UHGV virus genome: UHGV-0222911
Reading direction: 5' to 3' (one strand)
DNA from: a virus
Length of the DNA: 64,000 bases
The first letter of the stretch is position 1; each line of letters opens with the position of its first letter. A program made the position numbers and the translations under genes. The notes beneath the pieces were generated by a model. That model did not search any database and was not told the DNA's origin. It saw nothing but the letters and a program-made list of their open reading frames with translations. This document shows positions 2,385 through 51,413 of the stretch, one piece after another.

Positions 2385-10388
<8,004 letters not shown>

Positions 10389-37448: not shown

Positions 37449-38518
37449 TTAACCAGCACCCAATCTTTTTAGGTGGTGAGAGAAAAACTTTTGACTCACT
37501 TAATAAGCACTACCCAAAAATCTTTGAACTTTATAAACAACAAAAAGCACAAGACTGGTCAGAAGATGAGTTCCCTTTTGAACAATCACGTCTTGATTTT
37601 GAGAGTGTCCCAGCATCAATGTCAGGTGTAATGCTTGAGATTCTTAAGTGGCAATGGGAAGCAGATACTCAAGTTGCTAAGAGCTTGGCATTTGCCTTTG
37701 CACCCTTTATCTCTGATGACATCTATGCAACTGCAATTATGAAGCAGTCTGAGATTGAAAACCTACACGCTCTTACTTACTCAGAGATTGTAAGGCAATG
37801 TATTAAAAACCCTGAAACAATCTTAGATGAGATTAACCAGAATGTTGCTGTACAAGACCGATTAAAAACTGTGAATCGTGTTCTTGAAGAATTGCTGGAT
37901 GAAGGTATAAACTATCGACTGAGTTATGTCCGTGACTCACTTCTGGACAAAGACCCTTTACACTTCCATAAAGTGATTCTGAAAGGTCTATTTGCAGTGA
38001 CTGCACTGGAAGGTATATCTTTTATGGCATCCTTTGCATGTACTTTTGCACTTGATGCTCAAGATAAATTTCAGGGTATTGCTCAAGCTGTCCAGAAAAT
38101 TATGCTTGATGAAATCCTTCACACTAAAATTGATATTGAAGTTTTAAAAGAAACTTTAAGAGATGATGAGTGGCAAAAAGCTTTCCAACAAATTCTTCCA
38201 GAGATTAAAGTAATCTTAGATGAAGTAGTTGAAAGTGAAGAAAAATGGTCGTATTATATCTTCTCCGAAGGACGTGCTGTAGTTGGTTTAAATACAAAGC
38301 TTCTTCATGAGTGGGTTTACTATAATGCTGCCCCACTGTATGATATGTTTGGCATTCCCAGAGATTTTGTAGCTCCTAAAGAACCACCTTTGAAGTATAT
38401 GATTAAGAAGATGGAAATTGATAAAGAGCAGAATGCTAATCAGGAGCAACAGAACGGTGCGTATTTATTGAATACTGTTGTAGATGATTTGAATAGTGGA
38501 TTTTTAGAGGTTCCTTAA
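37445..38518 (+). CDS. nrdB: ribonucleotide reductase class I small subunit
   Basis: 357 aa from MINQHPIF; diiron-site-like segments (EGISFMASFA, LDEILHT); adjacent to nrdA. Confidence 0.85.
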   Translation: MINQHPIFLGGERKTFDSLNKHYPKIFELYKQQKAQDWSEDEFPFEQSRLDFESVPASMSGVMLEILKWQWEADTQVAKSLAFAFAPFISDDIYATAIMKQSEIENLHALTYSEIVRQCIKNPETILDEINQNVAVQDRLKTVNRVLEELLDEGINYRLSYVRDSLLDKDPLHFHKVILKGLFAVTALEGISFMASFACTFALDAQDKFQGIAQAVQKIMLDEILHTKIDIEVLKETLRDDEWQKAFQQILPEIKVILDEVVESEEKWSYYIFSEGRAVVGLNTKLLHEWVYYNAAPLYDMFGIPRDFVAPKEPPLKYMIKKMEIDKEQNANQEQQNGAYLLNTVVDDLNSGFLEVP

Positions 38519-38760
38519 TGACTTATATAATTTACTCCAAAACCGGATGCCCTCAGTGTGAGACTGCAAAGAATTTTGCGAAAGCTCGTGGTATTGGCCA
38601 TGTTGTGAGAATGTTAGGGCAGGATTATGAACTGTCAGACCTGATGGATATTGCACAGATGCCAGTTCGTCAGATGCCATTCATCATGAAAACTGACGGT
38701 CAAAACTTAAAACCTGTTGGAACGCTACAGAATTTTATGGCAGAGGTGAATAATGCTTAA
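38518..38760 (+). CDS. glutaredoxin/NrdH-like redoxin
   Basis: 80 aa; active site SKTGCPQCETAK (CxxC). Confidence 0.75.
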   Translation: MTYIIYSKTGCPQCETAKNFAKARGIGHVVRMLGQDYELSDLMDIAQMPVRQMPFIMKTDGQNLKPVGTLQNFMAEVNNA

Positions 38761-38959
38761 ACGCCTTTGGGAAGGTTTGGTTGTTGATGCACCAGCCATT
38801 GTGATTGGTATGCTTGTTGTTAACCTATTTACTGATTTTGAACAAGGTTCATTGTTTGGAGCCATGCTATTATGGGTTATCTTTGAAATATTAGAGATAC
38901 AGCTAGGCATCACTGAAAAACTAAGAAAACTCGTTTCAAAGTTTTCTAAAAAGATTTAA
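38753..38959 (+). CDS. small membrane protein
   Basis: 68 aa, two hydrophobic segments. Confidence 0.3.
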   Translation: MLKRLWEGLVVDAPAIVIGMLVVNLFTDFEQGSLFGAMLLWVIFEILEIQLGITEKLRKLVSKFSKKI

Positions 38960-44574: not shown

Positions 44575-45456
44575 ATGAAAACATCTATCCGTGTTACAGT
44601 TCATTCACCAACTAAAGGAACTCATGAAGAAGAGTTTAACATCATCCAATTTCCTTCTGGTGAGATTGGTGGACACTTTTCGCCAGAGTTTGTTGATTTT
44701 ACTGCTTATGCAGCATCATCCATCAACAATGTGATTATGATTGTAAAAGGTTATGATAAGGACACATTGTTTGCTGTGGCACTTGCTAAAGAAGCAATTG
44801 ATGATTTAATTCCTCACGATTATGCTTTAAAGACTGTCATCTTTTACTACTTACCAAATGCACGATATGACCGTCACATGTTTAAAGGCGACGCAGCAGC
44901 TTTAAAGGTTTTTGCTAAACAGATTAATGCAATGGGGTTTGGCGCAGTCTGTGCAGTTGACCCTCACAGCTATGTACCAGATAACCTGTTTAACTGCTTC
45001 CAGAGTATTCCTCAAAAGGAAATTGCAGTCCACTATGCAAATGACCCACTGATTGATTACTTAGTAGCCCCAGATGCAGGTGCTGCTAAGAAGATTGCAG
45101 AGACTGCTAAAGAGGTGGATAAACCATACATCACAATGTCTAAAGTGCGTAACCTTAAGACTGGTGAAATTACTGGTATGCGAATCCTTGATGATGTTGA
45201 TTTGACAGATAAAACCGTTATGATTCTGGATGATATCTGTGATGGTGGTCGAACCTTCATAGAAGCAGCGAAACATCTTCGTGAAGCAGGTGCAAAACGT
45301 GTGGAACTTTATGTAACACATGGTATCTTCTCTAAAGATGTTGAAAACCTTCTTGACAATGGTATCGACCATATTTACACTACAAACTCTTTAGGCGAAG
45401 CTAAAGACCGTGGCTTAACACATTACAGTCAAGTTACTGTAGCAAACCTTGATTGA
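44575..45456 (+). CDS. ribose-phosphate pyrophosphokinase-like enzyme (Prs family; possibly ADP-ribose pyrophosphokinase of an NAD+ reconstitution pathway)
   Basis: 293 aa; PRPP-synthetase-type motif VMILDDICDGGRTF; directly upstream of NAMPT-like gene. Confidence 0.7.
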   Translation: MKTSIRVTVHSPTKGTHEEEFNIIQFPSGEIGGHFSPEFVDFTAYAASSINNVIMIVKGYDKDTLFAVALAKEAIDDLIPHDYALKTVIFYYLPNARYDRHMFKGDAAALKVFAKQINAMGFGAVCAVDPHSYVPDNLFNCFQSIPQKEIAVHYANDPLIDYLVAPDAGAAKKIAETAKEVDKPYITMSKVRNLKTGEITGMRILDDVDLTDKTVMILDDICDGGRTFIEAAKHLREAGAKRVELYVTHGIFSKDVENLLDNGIDHIYTTNSLGEAKDRGLTHYSQVTVANLD

Positions 45457-45501: not shown

Positions 45502-47283
45502 ATGACTAAATCACTTTATGCAGTACCAGCAGGTTTAAATGCAGATGCTTACAAATCTGGTCATGTTTACCAGTATCCTAGCGCAACAGAGTACTTGATG
45601 TTCAATCTGACACCACGTAGCGACAAATGGTTTAACAGCCCTTTAGCAATTGACGGTGTAGTGGCTTTTGGTATTCAACGTTTTGTTAAAGATTACTTGA
45701 TAGACCACTGGAATGCCACTTTCTTTGAACGTGATAAAAAAGAAGCCATTGATGAAATCTTAGAAGTCATGAATGGTGTTCTGGGTAAAGATGCTATCGG
45801 TCGAGAGCATTGGGAAGCACTTCACGACTTAGGTTATCTACCAGTTGAAGTATACGCTGTAGAAGAAGGCACAGTTGTTCCAATGCGTGTCCCGATGATT
45901 GTCTTTCATAACACTGTTTCAGGTTTTCATTGGGTAGCAGGTTATCTGGAAGATGCTTTCTCTGCTGAAATTTGGAAGGCTTGCACCATTGCAACTATTG
46001 CATTGCATTACAAACGCATCTGTAAGAAGTGGGCTGACCTTACTTGTGACAATGACTTACATTTACCTTATCAGTGCCATGATTTTGCTATGCGTGGTAT
46101 GTCCGGCTTTACTGATGACGCATTTAACGCTGTAGGTCACTTAACCAGCTTTAAAGGGACTGATAGCTTCCCTGCTGTATACACGGCTAAACGAATCTAT
46201 GGACAGTCCTACCCAATCTCTGATATTGGTAGCTCTGTACCAGCCACTGAGCACTCTGTAATGTGTGCAAACATTGCTTGGGAAGGTGGTAACGAGTTAA
46301 TTGAAGAAGAAAGACGCTTTAAAGGTGAGTTACAAACCTTCCGTCGTTTCTTAACAGAAACTTACCCAACTGGTATTGCAAGTGTTGTTTCAGATACTTA
46401 TAACTTCTGGAGAACTGTATCAGTCATATTACCAGAACTCCGTAAAGAGATTATGGAACGTAATGGCAAACTGGTAATTCGTCCTGATTCTGGAGACCCT
46501 GTACATATTGTCACAGGATACAAAGCAATCCATTTAGAGTGTGCTAAAAAGGCTTATTATGAACACTTAAGCAAGCTGGAAGCCAGTGACACAATGTTGA
46601 ATGCTGTTCTGAACATGAAGCTTGAAAACATCAATTATGGTATTGCTGGATGGCTACTGTCAGAAGGCTACGAAATGGTTGTTGACAGAGAAGACTTTGA
46701 AGTTGCTGATACAGTGCTGTTGAAAAACGCTTATATGGTTGGTTCTGCAAACGTTGTAACACGTCCTGTAGCGGAGATTGATGGAGCTATCAAGACACTG
46801 TATAACATCTTTGGAGGAACTATCAACTCTAAAGGTTTTAAAGTACTGGATGAGCATATCGGGCTTATTTATGGCGACTCTATCACGTTGGAACGTGCAA
46901 ACGAAATACTGAAGCGTTTGTATGAAATGGGTTTTGCAAGCTCTAACGTAGTGTTTGGTGTAGGTTCTTACACTTACCAGTACATGACTCGTGACACCTT
47001 TGCATTTGCTGTCAAAGCAACTCTTGGAAGCATTGGTGGTAAAGAGATTATGCTTGCAAAAGACCCTAAAACAGATAGTGGTGTTAAGAAGTCTGCTTTT
47101 GGTGGTGTAGCACCTATGTGGGATGGTGAAAATCTGAAAGCTGTAGATGGCTATGGGTTCCAGAGCTTTGCAGATGCACTTGAACACCCAGCTTGTGCTT
47201 TACGTCTAGTCTTTAGCGACTCTGAGCAGTTCGGCTACACGACTCTTGGTGATATTCGAAATAATATTGACAAGCAGCTTTAA
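45502..47283 (+). CDS. nicotinamide phosphoribosyltransferase-like enzyme (NadV/NAMPT family)
   Basis: 593 aa; N-terminal NADAYKSGHVYQYP matches NAMPT signature (DSYKVTHYKQYP). Confidence 0.8.
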   Translation: MTKSLYAVPAGLNADAYKSGHVYQYPSATEYLMFNLTPRSDKWFNSPLAIDGVVAFGIQRFVKDYLIDHWNATFFERDKKEAIDEILEVMNGVLGKDAIGREHWEALHDLGYLPVEVYAVEEGTVVPMRVPMIVFHNTVSGFHWVAGYLEDAFSAEIWKACTIATIALHYKRICKKWADLTCDNDLHLPYQCHDFAMRGMSGFTDDAFNAVGHLTSFKGTDSFPAVYTAKRIYGQSYPISDIGSSVPATEHSVMCANIAWEGGNELIEEERRFKGELQTFRRFLTETYPTGIASVVSDTYNFWRTVSVILPELRKEIMERNGKLVIRPDSGDPVHIVTGYKAIHLECAKKAYYEHLSKLEASDTMLNAVLNMKLENINYGIAGWLLSEGYEMVVDREDFEVADTVLLKNAYMVGSANVVTRPVAEIDGAIKTLYNIFGGTINSKGFKVLDEHIGLIYGDSITLERANEILKRLYEMGFASSNVVFGVGSYTYQYMTRDTFAFAVKATLGSIGGKEIMLAKDPKTDSGVKKSAFGGVAPMWDGENLKAVDGYGFQSFADALEHPACALRLVFSDSEQFGYTTLGDIRNNIDKQL

Positions 47284-47297
47284 AAGTATATGATAAG

Positions 47298-47320
47298 AGG
47301 CTCCTACGGGAGCCTTTTTA
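47298..47320 (+). terminator. hairpin + T-run
   Basis: AGGCTCC tacg GGAGCCT followed by TTTTT. Confidence 0.55.
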
Positions 47321-47336
47321 ATTTCTGGAGAAGATT

Positions 47337-47672
47337 ATGAAAATCAAAGAGATGAACATCAACATCGTCTTAGAAGAACGTTGGGAGAACATTAAGAAGC
47401 CTGAAAATGGTCATAAGTTCCTTAACAAAATTTTAGTAGCAGCTAAAGAAGAACTGACTGGTAAGATTGCAGCAGCAATCACAATAAAGGTCTGTGTAAA
47501 AGGTCTTCCAGACAATCACCAATTTGCACTTGACGAGTTTAAAGAAAGCTTCTACAATCCAAACAAACAGATGCTTGAAAGTAACTTTGCAGTGTCTACA
47601 AGTATCGTCCATGACAGAAGCTTTATCCTTTACAAGAATATGAGAGGTGAGTCATGCAAGCATATTGGATAG
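47337..47672 (+). CDS. hypothetical protein
   Basis: 111 aa ORF. Confidence 0.4.
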   Translation: MKIKEMNINIVLEERWENIKKPENGHKFLNKILVAAKEELTGKIAAAITIKVCVKGLPDNHQFALDEFKESFYNPNKQMLESNFAVSTSIVHDRSFILYKNMRGESCKHIG

Positions 47673-47830
47673 AAATTTTGCTGTCACTTGGTAGTGTAGC
47701 AGTATTTGTTTACCTCCTTTGTAAGTACTTTGCAGAGCACAAAAAATGTGACTACTGTAATGGAGAGGGGTACATAAGGGCAGGATGTTGCCCTATGTGT
47801 GGTGGTTCTGGTAAAATGTTTAACAAGTAA
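47654..47830 (+). CDS. membrane-anchored mini-protein with two CxxCxGxG zinc-finger repeats
   Basis: 58 aa; SD GAGG before ATG; TM segment then CDYCNGEG and CPMCGGSG (DnaJ-type Cys-rich repeats); below ORF-track cutoff. Confidence 0.35.
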   Translation: MQAYWIEILLSLGSVAVFVYLLCKYFAEHKKCDYCNGEGYIRAGCCPMCGGSGKMFNK

Positions 47831-47858: not shown

Positions 47859-50225
47859 ATGCGCATGGTAAATGACCACGCAGAAGTGATTAAGAGTTCA
47901 ACTTCTTTAGAGACGTCTCAAGCACAGATTACAATGACACCTGAGATGTTCAGCCTTTTGAGTTCTGGTGTATATACCTTTAAAGAAAGGGCAGTGATTC
48001 GTGAACTGTCATGTAATGCAGTAGATGCTCAGAAAGAAGCTGGAAAAGAAAACATCCCGTTCCATGTGCATTTACCTACTCGATTTGAGCCTTACTTTGA
48101 AGTCCGTGACTTTGGAACTGGTTTAACCCATGACAAAGTAATGAGTTTGTATCTGAACTACGGTGCTTCTACGAAGAATGACTCTAATGACTACATTGGT
48201 GCAATGGGTATCGGCTCAAAGTCACCGTTTGCAATTGCTCAGTCATTCACAGTATCTAGCTATGTTGATGGTGTTGTTAATAAGTACTCTGTTTACCTTG
48301 AGAATGGTATCCCTCAAGTAACTAAGCTTACTACTAACCAAACAAATGAACCTAATGGTTTAGCGGTACGTGTGGCAGTTGCTGACCACCGTATCTCAAA
48401 GTTCTTTGAAGAAGCTGGGAATGTGTACTCATACTTCACTGTAAAACCAGAAAGTAATATTGAGTACGACGATGTATTAGCAGATATGAACGTCATTGCC
48501 CGTGAAGAAGGTGTTTATGATGCCATGATTCATAAGCAAAGCTGGCGTTCTAGTGGTAACAGGACAGAGTTTAATGTGGTGATGGGTAATATTGCCTATC
48601 CAGTGAACATGGAAGCATTACTTGGTGATGATTTCTTCAAAGTCTTGCCAGAGTTTTTCCGTAGGAGCGTAGACCTTGTAAACATCTACATGCCTATTGG
48701 TTCAGTTGCTATAGCAGCTTCTCGTGAAGCATTGCAGATGAATGACACGACAAAAAATGTTATCATTGAGGCTACTAAAAAGATAACTGAAGCCATTACA
48801 AAGGATGTTATCAAGAAAGTTAATAGCCAACCTACACTCATGGATGCTGCACAGGCTTATGCAGAGTTACGTTTGAACTCACGAGAGATGTTTAATGCTG
48901 TGTGTCCAAAGCTAGAGTGGGGAGGCGTTAAGCTTGATTCTCTGGAAGAAGAATTGTTAAACATTCGTCGTGGAATTATCTACGCAGAAGACGGCTCAGT
49001 CATTTATGAACGTGACGGTAAAGGCAATATTAAGGTTGATAGGAACGGGAACAATATCCCTAAAGTAGATTATCTTTATGACCCAGTTGCTTATGTCAAG
49101 TTCAACTCTTTAGAGAGTAAGATTCGTGCAACAGCACTTTCCTACACTCAAGAGGCAAGCATGTTCAATATCTTTGGTGCAATGCGTAAAAGCCAAATTG
49201 AACAGTTTTTGTTCGTGATTAATGACCGTCGCAATAAAAACGGTACTGAGAAGACTGTAGGACGCAATCAAATTTTGCGTGGTGCATGTCGAGACTACGC
49301 CAGTGAGTCAAATCTGTTTCACAGATACAATGGTATTGTCTTTGTATTCTCTACAGAGAAAGAGCTAGATGACTTAATCAATCTGCACAAACTTGATAAA
49401 AGCTTGTTAAAGATTGTGAAGATGTCTGATAAGGAACATCACTATCAGCGTAAAGAAGCTGTAAGAGGTGTTGTAAAACTCTGGAAAGCTGTTCCAGCAG
49501 AAGGTGTAGCTTCCTATAAAGAGGTTTCAGAGGACTTTGATACAATTGAAGAACCTCAGCTTTACATTAAGGCAGTTGGTGACACAGTTGACGGTGAATG
49601 TTTTTGCTCATCTCCAGAAGATGTAGCCAAGTCAGTTGCTAATGTTATAGGGAAGACAGTCTATGTTTTCCGAAAAGCAAATTGGAAAAAGATACCAGAA
49701 GACTGGATTGAAGTAGACGAGAAACTCTTGAACGACAGCTTAACTGACGTTCACTGGATTAACCATAACAGATATATGACACGTATCTATATGAATGGTG
49801 TCCTCGACCTTACAAGCAGTTGGATTATTGCCAGAAACTTTACGTTCAATAACAGGAAGATTTCTCGTGGCTATTGCTATTCACGAGACACAAACAAAAC
49901 TATCTTCTTAGAAGGCAATGAAGATGCTGTTGAGGCAATGTTTGGTAAAATCCAATACGTTGCTGCACCGTTTGCATACACTTACACTATTAGTAGATTG
50001 CAAACTTTGAAAGAATGCCTTGACAATGATACAAAACTGTACAAGAAAATTAAGAAAGCTGGTGACCGCATGGTCATTAAGGTGACAAACTACCTTTCAA
50101 AAAGAAAACAAGAAAACTTCTTGCTTTCACACTTAGATTGGAATAAAGTGTCACCCATCGAAGTGAGTAAGTTCTTAGGCTTTGATGTGAAGTGTGTTCC
50201 AGAAGGGACTACAATTTACGATTAA
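47859..50225 (+). CDS. rIIA-like protein
   Basis: 788 aa; N-terminal GHKL/HATPase-like motifs (NAVDA, EVRDFGTGL, GAMGIGSKS) as in T4 rIIA. Confidence 0.6.
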   Translation: MRMVNDHAEVIKSSTSLETSQAQITMTPEMFSLLSSGVYTFKERAVIRELSCNAVDAQKEAGKENIPFHVHLPTRFEPYFEVRDFGTGLTHDKVMSLYLNYGASTKNDSNDYIGAMGIGSKSPFAIAQSFTVSSYVDGVVNKYSVYLENGIPQVTKLTTNQTNEPNGLAVRVAVADHRISKFFEEAGNVYSYFTVKPESNIEYDDVLADMNVIAREEGVYDAMIHKQSWRSSGNRTEFNVVMGNIAYPVNMEALLGDDFFKVLPEFFRRSVDLVNIYMPIGSVAIAASREALQMNDTTKNVIIEATKKITEAITKDVIKKVNSQPTLMDAAQAYAELRLNSREMFNAVCPKLEWGGVKLDSLEEELLNIRRGIIYAEDGSVIYERDGKGNIKVDRNGNNIPKVDYLYDPVAYVKFNSLESKIRATALSYTQEASMFNIFGAMRKSQIEQFLFVINDRRNKNGTEKTVGRNQILRGACRDYASESNLFHRYNGIVFVFSTEKELDDLINLHKLDKSLLKIVKMSDKEHHYQRKEAVRGVVKLWKAVPAEGVASYKEVSEDFDTIEEPQLYIKAVGDTVDGECFCSSPEDVAKSVANVIGKTVYVFRKANWKKIPEDWIEVDEKLLNDSLTDVHWINHNRYMTRIYMNGVLDLTSSWIIARNFTFNNRKISRGYCYSRDTNKTIFLEGNEDAVEAMFGKIQYVAAPFAYTYTISRLQTLKECLDNDTKLYKKIKKAGDRMVIKVTNYLSKRKQENFLLSHLDWNKVSPIEVSKFLGFDVKCVPEGTTIYD

Positions 50226-50304: not shown

Positions 50305-51413
50305 ATGACTACTAAAACTAAAGCACAGATTGACGCAGAAATTTACGAACTGGTTAAAGAAGGTAAGCTGACTAAAACAGCTATTGCACAGAAGTTCAAT
50401 ACTTCAACCCGTTCAGTTGGTCGTGCTGTAGAGCGTCATGAAGCAACCTTAAAAGGTAAGAAGAAGGCGACTTCTACACCAGCTAAGAAGACCCTAAAAC
50501 AAGTTGCTAAGTCAGTTAAAAAGAAAGCTGACAAACCAGTTGAAAAGGCCGTTAAAGACGCTGTACAGAAAGCTCCAGTAAATAAACTGCATGAAGCTAT
50601 GCAGAAAGATGACAAGATTGAGTACATGATTACTGGTGACTCTGTAATTATGACTTACGGTTCAGAATCTGAAATTGTTGAGTCTACTCATCCGAACTAT
50701 CAAGAGATTGTAGTTCATGTTGTGAAAGGTGAGTTCAAGAAAGCATTTGAACTGATGAACATTCGTAAGTCTATCGAAAACTTCACTCAGGGTGCTATCA
50801 CAATCAAAGGTGACAAGCTCTTCTACGGTGCTGTTGAGATGCGTTCTACTCTGGTTGACCGTATTCTTCACATGATGAAAACTGGTGATAAAGGTTTTGA
50901 ACGACTTGTAATGTTCTTCGAAAAACTGATGGAAAACCCATCTAAAGATTCTGTAGAACAACTTTGGGGATTTGTATCTCACCTTGATGTTGAAATTGAT
51001 GAAGAAGGTTACATCATTGGTTGGAAGAAAGTCTCTACTCGTGAAGGCAAGCTGGTTGACTCTCACACCTACAAAGTGCCTAATGATTTGGGTAACATTG
51101 TAGAGATGCCACGTTGGATGGTTGATAACAACCGTAACGTAACTTGCTCTCAAGGTCTTCATGTTGGCGCTTGGATTATGTTCGTTGCTTCTCAGGTGAT
51201 ACCATCCTGAAGGTTCGTGTCCATCCACGAGATGTTGTATCCGTACCAACTGATTACAACGATATGAAGATGCGTTCCTCTCGTTATGAAGTTGCAGCAA
51301 TCGTTGATAATCAACGTAAAGTGCTGAAAGCATGGGATGGTAAGACTGAAGCTTTGCATGTCATCGTTGGCACTGCTGGTGAACTTATCTCTCAACGTAA
51401 ACGTGAAATCTAA
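50305..51413 (+). CDS. rIIB-like protein candidate, split by an apparent -1 frameshift near 51180-51210
   Basis: ORFs 50305..51210 and 51144..51413 overlap by 67 nt in different frames and read as one protein; Lys-rich segment near N-terminus; rIIB identity only from position after rIIA-like gene. Confidence 0.3.

What the first reader, a model, noticed from the sequence alone, without database searches (positions are those of the whole stretch)
47654..47830. Unannotated 58-aa membrane mini-protein with two CxxCxGxG repeats
Below the ORF-track cutoff but with a good SD (GAGG): one TM helix followed by CDYCNGEG and CPMCGGSG, the repeat type found in DnaJ zinc-finger domains. It could tether a zinc finger to the inner membrane.
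Basis: seen in the sequence. Interest (0 to 1): 0.4.

Follow-up and report, generated by a model that had tools for sequence, protein, structure and literature searches.

The report
Membrane-anchored zinc-knuckle mini-protein of Felix-O1-like phages
This is a real, strongly conserved 58-residue phage gene that most likely anchors a single DnaJ/Anti-TRAP-type zinc knuckle to the cytoplasmic face of the host inner membrane. Public phage genomes already list it as a "hypothetical membrane protein", and its function is still unknown.

Summary
The ORF at 47654-47830 (+) is exactly as described: a strong Shine-Dalgarno sequence, one hydrophobic helix, then CDYCNGEG-x6-CPMCGGSG. These are the only two CxxCxGxG motifs in all six frames of the window.

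**Source and prior annotation:** The window is a Felixounavirus (Felix O1-like myovirus). The ORF is not new. It is Felix01p243/NP_945023.1 "hypothetical membrane protein", PHROG 3931 (unknown function), and one GenBank record already notes the DnaJ zinc-finger similarity.

**Evidence it is a gene:** pN/pS is 0.09 in frame against 2.0 and 1.1 off frame. It is intact in about 260 phage records. Homologues at 47-59% identity occur in other Ounavirinae, always between nadV and rIIA. A more distant set occurs in Krischvirus (RB49 group), always just after an nrdH glutaredoxin.

**Structure:** AlphaFold gives helix 3-28 plus a small beta knuckle that superposes on Anti-TRAP's Cys4 zinc module (0.9 Å over 28 residues). 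A family profile matches the DnaJ Cys-rich domain (E 5.6e-9). Charge bias (0 K/R before the helix, 2-7 after) predicts N-out/C-in.

**Best reading:** an early, accessory, membrane-tethered protein-binding zinc knuckle with an unknown partner. It is ordinary and of modest interest.

The parts
47654..47830 (+). CDS of the 58-aa mini-protein, stop codon included (equivalent to Felix01p243 / NP_945023.1; PHROG 3931)
   Evidence: ORF listing and sequence. PHROG 3931 full-length match at E 1.5e-33. pN/pS 0.09 in frame against 2.0 and 1.06 off frame, with variable sites 9/5/29 by codon position. Annotated in public records.
47642..47650 (+). Shine-Dalgarno sequence GAGAGGTGA, lying inside the 3' end of the upstream 111-aa ORF
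   Evidence: Read directly from the sequence. A purine-rich SD at -6 to -13 is conserved in all Felixouna-, Moogle- and Susp-type alleles. Annotated as an RBS in phages Meda and Moogle.
47660..47737 (+). N-terminal helix (residues 3-28) containing the transmembrane segment (core about residues 5-23). E7 and S11 are invariant across families.
   Evidence: AlphaFold helix 3-28. Kyte-Doolittle 19-mer mean 2.11. Invariant E7 and S11. TM-part pN/pS 0.14.
47738..47821 (+). Cytoplasm-facing Cys4 zinc-knuckle module (residues 29-56). Motif 1 is CDYCNGEG at 47747-47770 and motif 2 is CPMCGGSG at 47789-47812. Most members have an extra Cys45 forming a 'CC' doublet.
   Evidence: Motif scan. Invariant C32, C35, G37, C46, C49, G51, G53, K54. 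DnaJ Cys-rich domain E 5.6e-9 and Anti-TRAP E 0.035 by profile. Foldseek to Anti-TRAP at rmsd 0.9 Å over 28 aa. pN/pS 0.064.
47337..47672 (+). Upstream 111-aa ORF (PHROG 4262, unknown function). Its last 19 nt overlap the mini-ORF start, suggesting translational coupling. It is not always present alongside the mini-ORF.
   Evidence: The same 19-nt overlap occurs in Moogle, SUSP1 and CHB7. The ORF is absent in Yersinia phage P778 and Pectobacterium phage Arno162. The AlphaFold model (pLDDT 69) shows only a weak resemblance to the IF3 C-terminal domain.
47267..47318 (+). Sigma-70-like promoter (TTGACA-16-TATGAT, 47267-47294) directly abutting a G+C-rich hairpin with a T-run (47295-47318) at the end of nadV. 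This is the likely start of the 111aa - 58aa - rIIA unit.
   Evidence: Consensus scan, 11 of 12 matches, and terminator scan. Conserved in relatives that lack the inserted ORF, with a changed hairpin loop in L008 and L029. A terminator is annotated at this place in phage Meda.
47859..50225 (+). rIIA, starting 28 nt after the mini-ORF's stop codon. It is the conserved downstream neighbour throughout Ounavirinae.
   Evidence: PHROG 612, E 5e-189. Gene order. All 25 rIIA loci at 63% identity or more carry the mini-ORF immediately upstream.

Best explanation
The ORF is a genuine, translated accessory gene of Felix-O1-like phages.

**The product.** It is a 58-residue single-pass inner-membrane protein. 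The short acidic/aromatic N-terminus (MQxYWxE) faces the periplasm. One transmembrane helix spans roughly residues 5-25. The C-terminal ~28 residues face the cytoplasm and fold around one Zn2+ held by Cys32, Cys35, Cys46 and Cys49. This is a DnaJ-repeat / Anti-TRAP-type zinc knuckle.

**Expression.** It is probably transcribed from a host-type promoter at the end of nadV, as the second cistron of a 111aa-58aa-rIIA unit. Translation uses its own strong SD, which sits inside the 3' end of the preceding ORF.

**Mechanism (inferred).** In every characterised relative (DnaJ, Anti-TRAP, BSD2, plant FIP) this zinc module is a protein-binding surface. The most likely mechanism is therefore a membrane-tethered protein-binding peptide that captures or modulates a membrane-proximal host or phage protein early in infection. 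The conserved E7/S11/G13 face of the transmembrane helix possibly contributes a second, intramembrane contact.

**Shown here:** ORF, selection, conservation, fold prediction, charge bias, gene order.
**Inferred:** translation, topology, zinc binding, timing, and the existence and identity of a partner.
For: - **Coding:** pN/pS is 0.09 in frame against 2.0 and 1.06 in the other frames, with variable sites 9/5/29 by codon position. This is as constrained as the neighbours (111-aa ORF 0.10, rIIA 0.14), and both halves are constrained (TM 0.14, zinc finger 0.064).
- **Spread:** 264 phage records match by tblastn, and 263 of them cover at least 80% of the query. The intact cluster has 262 member sequences.
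- **Conservation:** 47-59% identity in Moogle/Susp-type phages with the same gene order. It is also present in Yersinia P778, Pectobacterium Arno162/Arno18 and Erwinia phiEa21-4, and in Krischvirus.
- **Invariant residues:** C32, C35, G37, C46, C49, G51, G53, K54.
- **Fold:** AlphaFold pLDDT 80, helix 3-28 plus a beta knuckle. Top PDB matches are Anti-TRAP 3LD0 and 2BX9, 28 aa at rmsd 0.9-1.1 Å and probability 1.0. Profile match to the DnaJ Cys-rich domain 1EXK at E 5.6e-9 with the same 6-residue linker, and to Anti-TRAP at E 0.035.
- **Topology:** 0 K/R in the N flank and 2-7 K/R in the C part in 15 of 15 members, with KD 1.97-3.05.
- **Expression signals:** conserved SD, promoter and hairpin.
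- **Protein-binding role of the module:** Arabidopsis FIP has a TM anchor plus one C4 finger with two CXXCXGXG repeats, has the same lumen-out/stroma-in layout, and binds FtsH5 (PMC5915565).
Against: - There is no experimental evidence of translation, membrane insertion or metal binding for any member. Papers found only list the ORF as a hypothetical membrane protein.
- The Foldseek E-values are weak (0.1-0.4) because the module is tiny.
- All curated family thresholds are missed.
- In Moogle/Susp-type members the 15 residues after the helix are net acidic (-3 to -4), so the charge-bias argument there rests on the basic C-terminal tail.
- Gene order gives no consistent functional partner. It is next to rIIA only in Ounavirinae (25/25) and in none of 48 more distant rIIA loci. 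It is next to a glutaredoxin in Krischvirus-like phages.
- Some Ounavirinae-like contigs lack it (L068, L072, L073), and rare frameshifted copies exist, so it is dispensable in some phages.
Confidence: 0.55

Rival explanations
1. The cysteines act as a membrane-tethered redox module (thiol-disulfide exchange or a redox-sensitive zinc switch) rather than as a purely structural zinc site. It would work with a phage glutaredoxin or thioredoxin, as reported for the DnaJ zinc finger and for thylakoid DnaJ-like proteins such as ZnJ6.
For: In every Krischvirus-like locus examined the gene starts 8-11 nt inside the end of an 89-91-aa NrdH-type glutaredoxin. This pairing is kept between copies only about 47% identical. 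Most members carry a fifth conserved Cys (the 'CC' doublet at 45-46) that a Cys4 site does not need. Redox and oxidising activities of DnaJ-like zinc fingers are reported in the abstracts of PMC7865324 and PMC8262869.
Against: In Ounavirinae the gene is not next to the phage glutaredoxin: grxC lies about 9 kb away at 38518-38760. The extra Cys is absent in P0010, P0033, P0137, P778 and Arno162. The adjacency occurs in one phage lineage, in a region packed with unrelated small ORFs.
Confidence: 0.15
2. The topology is the opposite (N-in/C-out). The Cys-rich tail would then be periplasmic and disulfide-bonded, acting in the envelope, for example in superinfection exclusion or lysis-inhibition signalling alongside rIIA/rIIB.
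For: It lies directly upstream of rIIA/rIIB throughout Ounavirinae. The juxtamembrane stretch is net acidic in Moogle/Susp-type members. From general knowledge, early small envelope proteins of T-even phages (Imm, Sp) mediate exclusion.
Against: No member has a positively charged N-region or a signal-peptidase or lipobox site. N flanks contain 0 K/R in 15 of 15 members, while the C-terminal parts are K/R-rich. The CxxCxGxG pair with a 6-residue linker matches known cytoplasmic zinc sites. The Krischvirus copies are not near rII genes.
Confidence: 0.1
3. It is the missing holin, or a lysis-timing membrane protein, of Felix-O1-like phages.
For: Felix O1-type genomes have no holin next to the endolysin, and an unidentified membrane protein elsewhere has been proposed to fill that role (PMC4837284). 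The protein is small, single-pass and has a basic C-terminus.
Against: It sits in a unit with a sigma-70-type promoter among early-type genes (nadV, rIIA/B). Homologues occur in Krischvirus (T4-like) phages in an early region; as T4-like phages these should already have a T-type holin (general knowledge, not checked here). No known holin carries a zinc knuckle (general knowledge). Several other 'hypothetical membrane proteins' are available as holin candidates.
Confidence: 0.05
4. It is a chance open reading frame with no product.
For: It is only 58 codons long and missing from some records' annotation: warpig leaves it unannotated and CHB7 annotates another frame.
Against: There is a strong frame-specific purifying-selection signature. 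It is conserved down to about 42% identity across two phage families, with all motif residues invariant. The SD is conserved. The motif pair was not seen in 200 shuffles.
Confidence: 0.01

Closest known systems
Anti-TRAP (RtpA) of Bacillus subtilis and B. licheniformis (PDB 2BX9, 3LD0, 3LCZ)
   Same: It is a roughly 53-aa mini-protein whose core is two CxxCxGxG-type motifs separated by 6 residues that together bind one zinc. It is the best structural match to the model (28 aa, rmsd 0.9-1.1 Å, 32-36% identity) and also a profile match (E 0.035-0.053). The module is used to bind another protein (TRAP).
   Different: Anti-TRAP is soluble, with no transmembrane helix. From general knowledge it has a C-terminal helix that drives trimer and dodecamer assembly. 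It is a Bacillus regulator of tryptophan genes. Curated family scores are not reached (Pfam 11.7 against a cutoff of 32; NCBIfam 14.4 against 65).
Cysteine-rich (zinc-finger) domain of DnaJ/Hsp40 (PF00684; PDB 1EXK)
   Same: The repeat unit CxxCxGxG is the same. The family profile hits 1EXK at E 5.6e-9, and the best stretch aligns to repeats 3-4 with identical spacing. One GenBank record already tags the ORF with COG0484.
   Different: DnaJ has four repeats forming two zinc centres, each made from non-adjacent repeats, embedded in a J-protein. Here there are only two repeats, no J domain and no C-terminal substrate-binding domains. The Pfam score is 18.3 against a cutoff of 32.7.
Plant thylakoid DnaJ-like zinc-finger membrane proteins, especially Arabidopsis FIP (At5g02160); also LQY1, CYO1, OR and ZnJ6
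   Same: FIP has the same architecture once its transit peptide is removed: one hydrophobic anchor followed by a single C4 finger with two CXXCXGXG repeats, with the N-terminus on the far side of the membrane and the finger on the stromal (cytoplasm-equivalent) side. It binds the membrane protease FtsH5 (PMC5915565).
   Different: FIP is a eukaryotic, plastid-targeted and larger protein. Most other plant members have four repeats and/or several transmembrane helices.
Partial DnaJ zinc modules embedded in other phage proteins (HMO-2011-type DNA polymerases; Acinetobacter phage Loki gp45, which is Q-like)
   Same: These have two CXXCXGXG motifs in a phage-encoded protein (PMC9038755 and PMC5313236). 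Many small phage proteins in BFVD share the knuckle.
   Different: Those modules are inserted in large soluble enzymes or regulators. None is described as a free-standing membrane-anchored mini-protein.

Membership tests
PHROG 3931 (phage protein family, function unknown) | Full-length match to the family HMM | tested here: met
   E 1.5e-33, 115.7 bits, residues 1-58 on profile positions 1-59 of 59.
DnaJ central cysteine-rich domain (Pfam PF00684 DnaJ_CXXCXGXG) | Score at or above the Pfam gathering threshold (32.7 bits) | tested here: not met
   18.3 bits, E 0.0029, matching only profile positions 34-65. TIGR02349 DnaJ_bact scored 18.6 against a cutoff of 377.
DnaJ central cysteine-rich domain (Pfam PF00684 DnaJ_CXXCXGXG) | Four CxxCxGxG repeats forming two zinc centres, within a J-domain protein | tested here: not met
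   There are only two repeats in the 58 residues. The rest is a transmembrane helix, and there is no J domain.
DnaJ central cysteine-rich domain (Pfam PF00684 DnaJ_CXXCXGXG) | CxxCxGxG repeat unit homologous to that of DnaJ | tested here: met
   The family profile against PDB sequences hits 1EXK at E 5.6e-9 (two stretches, individual E 4e-4 and 1.8e-3) and 2CTT at E 2.7e-5.
Anti-TRAP (Pfam PF15777; NCBIfam NF058604 RtpA) | Score at or above the curated thresholds | tested here: not met
   Pfam 11.7 bits against a cutoff of 32. NCBIfam 14.4 bits against 65.
Anti-TRAP (Pfam PF15777; NCBIfam NF058604 RtpA) | Single Cys4 zinc knuckle formed by two adjacent motifs with a 6-residue linker | tested here: met
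   The predicted fold superposes on 3LD0, 2BX9 and 3LCZ over 28 aa at rmsd 0.9-1.1 Å. The linker length is 6. Actual zinc binding was not tested.
Anti-TRAP (Pfam PF15777; NCBIfam NF058604 RtpA) | Soluble protein with a C-terminal oligomerisation helix that binds TRAP | tested here: not met
   The only helix is the N-terminal hydrophobic one, and the protein ends 5 residues after the second motif. From general knowledge, Enterobacterales hosts have no TRAP system.
DUF5351 (Pfam PF17302) | Score at or above the gathering threshold (27 bits) | tested here: not met
   19.9 bits, E 9.3e-4, covering residues 32-54 only.
Membrane-anchored DnaJ-like (DNAJE-type) zinc-finger proteins such as plant FIP | One hydrophobic anchor followed by a C4 finger with two CXXCXGXG repeats, and no J domain | tested here: met
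   The architecture was read from the sequence and the model. The FIP description comes from PMC5915565. This is an architectural class, not a homology family.
Membrane-anchored DnaJ-like (DNAJE-type) zinc-finger proteins such as plant FIP | Sequence homology to FIP and interaction with FtsH | not tested
Holins | Late expression next to the endolysin, and membrane-permeabilising activity | not testable with these tools
   The gene lies between nadV and rIIA behind a sigma-70-type promoter. The activity needs an experiment.

The most novel reading that the evidence does not exclude
The mini-protein is a phage-encoded, membrane-tethered inhibitor or adaptor of a host inner-membrane quality-control or defence component. 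One candidate is FtsH, by analogy with plant FIP; others are DnaK or a membrane-acting abortive-infection system. Under this reading it was acquired independently by Ounavirinae and RB49-type T4-like phages of Enterobacterales. It would be the first functionally defined bacterial-virus example of a free-standing, transmembrane-anchored DnaJ-type zinc knuckle.
Probability: 0.15. Interest if true: 0.6.

Novelty: new member of a known kind. Interest (0 to 1): 0.3.

Why it matters
Small phage membrane proteins are a large and mostly uncharacterised reservoir of host-manipulating factors. This one is unusually well conserved for its size. It has been kept in two unrelated groups of enterobacterial myoviruses, and its fold is readily interpretable: a membrane anchor plus a one-zinc protein-binding knuckle.

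If a partner were found, it would give a compact, easily synthesised 58-residue tool for targeting a membrane-proximal host protein. It would also assign a function to a family (PHROG 3931) found in more than 250 sequenced phages, several of which were isolated for biocontrol or studied for therapy. As it stands, it is a tidy annotation improvement rather than a surprise.

Tried and rejected
1. **T4 counterpart upstream of rIIA.** T4 rIIA.1 is a soluble helical 67-aa protein with no Cys motif. Rejected.
2. **General link to rIIA.** A survey of 73 rIIA loci from IMG/VR found the mini-ORF in all 25 close (Ounavirinae) loci and in none of 48 distant ones. It is also absent upstream of rIIA in L068, L072 and L073. 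The adjacency is shared gene order within one clade, not a general functional coupling.
3. **The overlapping 111-aa ORF as a route to function.** It has no Pfam, NCBIfam or PADLOC family and no PDB sequence match. Its AlphaFold model (pLDDT 69) gives only a weak resemblance to the IF3 C-terminal domain (TM about 0.45, E at least 0.008). It is absent from P778 and Arno162. Inconclusive.
4. **Frameshifted 63-aa database entries (P0003, P0005-7) as evidence of pseudogenisation.** They are singletons or near-singletons against a 262-member intact cluster. Phage warpig, suspected at first, has an intact but unannotated ORF. Not informative.
5. **Defence-system libraries and RNA families.** PADLOC gave nothing meaningful (E 0.018), and Rfam found nothing in the window.
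6. **Cellular homologues.** A pattern scan of GTDB species genomes returned only motif-level hits in long DnaJ-like proteins (median 399 aa) and four soluble two-motif mini-proteins. None had the transmembrane helix.
7. **Parallel between Felix O1 grxC and its downstream 68-aa membrane protein.** That protein has two hydrophobic segments and no Cys, so it is unrelated.
8. **Literature.** No paper found characterises the protein. It appears only in annotation tables.
Full report
**1. The observation**

The ORF is present exactly as reported. It runs from the ATG at 47654 to the stop ending at 47830 on the + strand and encodes 58 aa: MQAYWIEILLSLGSVAVFVYLLCKYFAEHKKCDYCNGEGYIRAGCCPMCGGSGKMFNK. 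The sequence GAGAGGTGA lies at 47642-47650, with the GAGG core ending 6 nt before the ATG. CDYCNGEG (47747-47770) and CPMCGGSG (47789-47812) are the only matches to C..C.G.G in all six reading frames of the 64-kb window. Shuffled windows give 0.19 motifs on average, and no in-frame pair appeared in 200 shuffles. The most hydrophobic 19-mer is residues 5-23, with a Kyte-Doolittle mean of 2.11.

**2. Where the window comes from, and whether the ORF is 'unannotated'**

The 2-kb region around the ORF is 95-97.5% identical to many Felixounavirus genomes (Felix O1-like myoviruses of E. coli, Salmonella and Shigella). In those records the ORF is annotated:
- 'putative membrane protein', similar to Felix O1 NP_945023.1, in KhF2.
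- 'possible membrane protein', with an annotated RBS, in Meda.
- 'Hypothetical membrane protein Felix01p243' in the published table for UAB_Phi87 (PMC4837284).

It belongs to PHROG 3931, function unknown (E 1.5e-33, full length). So neither the ORF nor the DnaJ-like motif is new. What is missing in public sources is any functional or structural description. A few records miss it: warpig leaves it unannotated although it is intact, and CHB7 annotates a different frame.

**3. Is it a gene?**

Yes. Among 23-24 distinct Felixounavirus alleles:
- Variable sites fall 9/5/29 on codon positions 1/2/3.
- pN/pS is 0.09 in the annotated frame, against 2.0 and 1.06 in the other two frames.
- This is as low as the flanking genes (111-aa ORF 0.10; rIIA N-terminal 300 codons 0.14). 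It holds for both halves of the protein: transmembrane part 0.14, zinc-finger part 0.064.

tblastn finds the protein in 264 phage records, 263 of them covering at least 80% of the query. Divergent homologues (47-59% identity) exist in Mooglevirus and Suspvirus with the same gene order. More distant ones occur in Yersinia phage P778, Pectobacterium phages Arno162/Arno18 and Erwinia phage phiEa21-4. A purine-rich SD is kept in every lineage, even though the overlapping upstream protein sequence differs. Rare 63-aa entries are frameshifted copies that read into the +1 frame. They are singletons or near-singletons against a 262-member intact cluster.

**4. A second lineage**

RB49-type T4-like phages (Krischvirus) encode 52-55-aa proteins with the same layout: a short acidic N-terminus, a hydrophobic helix, then C-x2-C-x-G-x-G, six residues, C-C-x2-C-x-G-x-G-K. 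They are 42% identical to the window protein over 50 residues in pairwise comparison. An exhaustive HMM search of 1.84 billion representatives found further same-length, same-architecture proteins (P0014, P0016, P0020, P0029, P0033, P0092, P0096, P0137). Everything else was a motif-only hit to multi-repeat CxxCxGxG proteins.

Invariant positions across both lineages are E7, S11, C32, C35, G37, C46, C49, G51, G53 and K54. Cys45 (the 'CC' doublet) is common but not universal.

**5. Structure and topology**

AlphaFold2 on an 8-sequence alignment gives pLDDT 80, a helix at residues 3-28 and short strands around the two motifs. Against the PDB:
- The best matches are the zinc module of Anti-TRAP (3LD0, 2BX9, 3LCZ; 28 residues, rmsd 0.9-1.1 Å, 32-36% identity, probability about 1.0). 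The E-values are only 0.1-0.4 because the module is so small.
- These are followed by DnaJA2, the DnaJ Cys-rich domain and BSD2.

By sequence profile, the E. coli DnaJ Cys-rich domain 1EXK scores E 5.6e-9. The best stretch falls on repeats 3-4, which have the same 6-residue spacing. Anti-TRAP scores E 0.035-0.053. With only two repeats and this linker, the simplest arrangement is one intramolecular Cys4 zinc site as in Anti-TRAP. That is an inference.

In 15 of 15 family members the segment before the helix contains no Lys or Arg, and the part after it contains 2-7. By the positive-inside rule this predicts N-out/C-in, so the zinc knuckle would sit in the reducing cytoplasm. The argument is weaker for Moogle/Susp-type members, whose juxtamembrane residues are net acidic and whose positive charge is concentrated in the GKKFKK tail. 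No positively charged N-region, AxA site or lipobox is present; Cys23 is not conserved.

**6. Genomic context**

In the window the gene order is:
- PRPP synthetase (44575-45456)
- NadV/NAMPT (45502-47283)
- a sigma-70-like promoter TTGACA-16-TATGAT (47267-47294) abutting a hairpin with a T-run (47295-47318)
- the 111-aa ORF (47337-47672)
- the mini-ORF (47654-47830)
- rIIA (47859-50225)
- rIIB (from 50305)

The promoter/hairpin element is conserved in relatives that lack an extra inserted ORF. The 19-nt overlap with the 111-aa ORF is identical in Moogle, SUSP1 and CHB7. However, the 111-aa ORF is absent in P778 and Arno162, where the mini-ORF still follows nadV directly. In P778 rIIA comes next. 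In Arno162 the record ends after the mini-ORF, and rIIA (40% identical to the window's) is the first gene of the record.

A survey of 73 rIIA loci shows the mini-ORF upstream of all 25 Ounavirinae-type rIIA genes (63% identity or more) and of none of 48 more distant ones. T4's rIIA.1 is unrelated.

In Krischvirus-like phages the gene instead overlaps the end of an NrdH-type glutaredoxin by 8-11 nt and precedes gp55.2 (DUF7570). This holds across copies only about 47% identical. Context therefore places the gene among early-type, accessory, host-directed genes but does not point to a single partner.

**7. Most likely mechanism**

I commit to the following. The gene makes a single-pass inner-membrane protein (N-out/C-in) that displays one structural-zinc knuckle on the cytoplasmic face of the membrane. 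The knuckle acts as a protein-binding surface toward a membrane-proximal host or phage protein early in infection.

The basis is that the same module is a protein-binding element in all its characterised relatives: DnaJ (general knowledge), Anti-TRAP bound to TRAP, and BSD2 bound to RbcL (PDB entry titles). In addition, the one described protein with the same overall architecture, Arabidopsis FIP, binds the membrane protease FtsH5 (PMC5915565). The conserved polar/small face of the helix (E7, S11, G13) and the low pN/pS of the transmembrane part suggest the helix is more than a passive anchor.

The identity of the partner is unknown. FtsH, DnaK, rIIA/B or a defence system are guesses. Confidence is about 0.9 that it is a real protein, about 0.75-0.8 for the topology and the zinc site, and about 0.5 for the adaptor/inhibitor role.

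**8. Rivals**

- **(a) A redox-active cysteine module working with glutaredoxin.** Supported by the Krischvirus pairing and the extra Cys. Weakened by the Ounavirinae context and by members that lack Cys45.
- **(b) Inverted topology with a disulfide-bonded periplasmic tail acting in exclusion or lysis inhibition.** Disfavoured by the charge distribution and the zinc-site match.
- **(c) The missing Felix O1 holin.** Disfavoured by the early-type context and by its presence in T4-like phages, which should already have a holin (general knowledge, not checked here).
- **(d) A chance ORF.** Refuted by selection and conservation.

**9. Comparison with known families**

It is a member of PHROG 3931.

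It is not a member of DnaJ_CXXCXGXG (18.3 bits against a cutoff of 32.7; two repeats instead of four; no J domain). It is not a member of Anti-TRAP (11.7 against 32; 14.4 against 65; no oligomerisation helix; has a transmembrane helix). It is not a member of DUF5351 (19.9 against 27).

It shares the repeat unit with DnaJ and the one-zinc fold with Anti-TRAP. It shares its architecture with plant membrane-anchored DnaJ-like zinc-finger proteins such as FIP. Two-motif partial DnaJ modules are also known inside larger phage proteins (PMC9038755 and PMC5313236). BFVD holds many small uncharacterised phage proteins with the same knuckle.

**10. Verdict**

The ORF is a real, conserved, already-catalogued 'hypothetical membrane protein' of Felix O1-like phages. 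This analysis adds:
- the selection evidence;
- the family's extent (most Ounavirinae lineages plus RB49-type phages);
- the Anti-TRAP-like one-zinc fold and the predicted N-out/C-in topology;
- two distinct conserved gene neighbourhoods.

It is best filed as a new (phage, free-standing) member of the known class of membrane-anchored DnaJ-type zinc-finger proteins. Interest is modest (0.3), because nothing about it is surprising and no function can yet be assigned.

Noticed in passing
window 50305-51413 (frameshift at about 51172-51176): rIIB is split in this window. The ORF at 50305-51210 (301 aa) ends prematurely, and the remainder is readable in another frame (51144-51413, 89 aa). Aligned with KhF2's intact 369-aa rIIB, one G is missing from a 'tggg' run just after Trp290. 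This is either a sequencing or assembly error or a genuine rIIB frameshift allele.
   Followed up: partly
window 47267-47318: A near-consensus sigma-70 promoter (TTGACA-16-TATGAT) overlaps the last codons of nadV and directly abuts a strong hairpin with a T-run. The predicted transcription start would fall inside the hairpin's 5' arm. The hairpin could therefore terminate nadV transcripts while not forming in transcripts that start at this promoter. The element is conserved in relatives, with a different loop in L008 and L029.
   Followed up: partly
between nadV and the 111-aa ORF (window about 47284-47336); L003:1038-1382: This intergenic slot is variable. Some Felixounaviruses (FSL SP-107, LF82P2, typing phage 1) carry a roughly 350-bp insertion with a 114-aa ORF. 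Moogle- and SUSP-type phages carry a 71-73-aa ORF (DUF7279 in one contig). P778 and Arno162 lack even the 111-aa ORF.
   Followed up: partly
P0166 (116 aa; contigs up to 95.7 kb): This database protein is a chimera of the PRPP-synthetase N-terminus (MKTSIRVTVHSPTKGTHEEEF...) and the C-terminal half of the 111-aa ORF. It implies a natural deletion variant that has lost nadV and the 3' part of the PRPP synthetase gene.
   Followed up: no
L006:3001-3177 (phage CHB7) and L037:1162-1338 (phage warpig): These are annotation gaps in public records. CHB7 annotates a 46-aa ORF in a different frame (3113-3253) instead of the conserved 58-aa ORF. Warpig leaves the intact ORF unannotated.
   Followed up: yes
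P0003, P0005, P0006, P0007 (63 aa each): These are frameshifted versions of the mini-ORF, with breaks at different points (codons about 22-37). The inferred breaks fall in short homopolymer runs, and all read into the same open +1 frame, ending ...LISNLTVN (LISNLTAN in P0007). They are singletons or near-singletons, and whether they are sequencing errors or real pseudogenes was not resolved.
   Followed up: partly
window 38518-38959: The phage glutaredoxin grxC (80 aa, CPQC motif) is followed, with an 8-nt overlap, by a 68-aa ORF that has two hydrophobic segments and no cysteine (Felix01p218 'hypothetical membrane protein'). It looks superficially like the Krischvirus nrdH-to-mini-ORF arrangement, but the proteins are unrelated.
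   Followed up: yes
window 47337-47672: The 111-aa ORF (PHROG 4262) has an invariant C-terminal half (FYNPNK..LE..F.VS.SIVHDRSF). Its predicted fold alternates beta strands and alpha helices and gives only weak Foldseek hits to the IF3 C-terminal domain and Schlafen N-domains (TM about 0.45). Its function is unknown.
   Followed up: partly
window 1-64000: No tRNA genes (ARAGORN) and no Rfam family at gathering threshold were found anywhere in the 64-kb window. wV8 and Felix O1 are reported to carry 23 and 22 tRNAs, so the tRNA cluster must lie outside this window.
   Followed up: no
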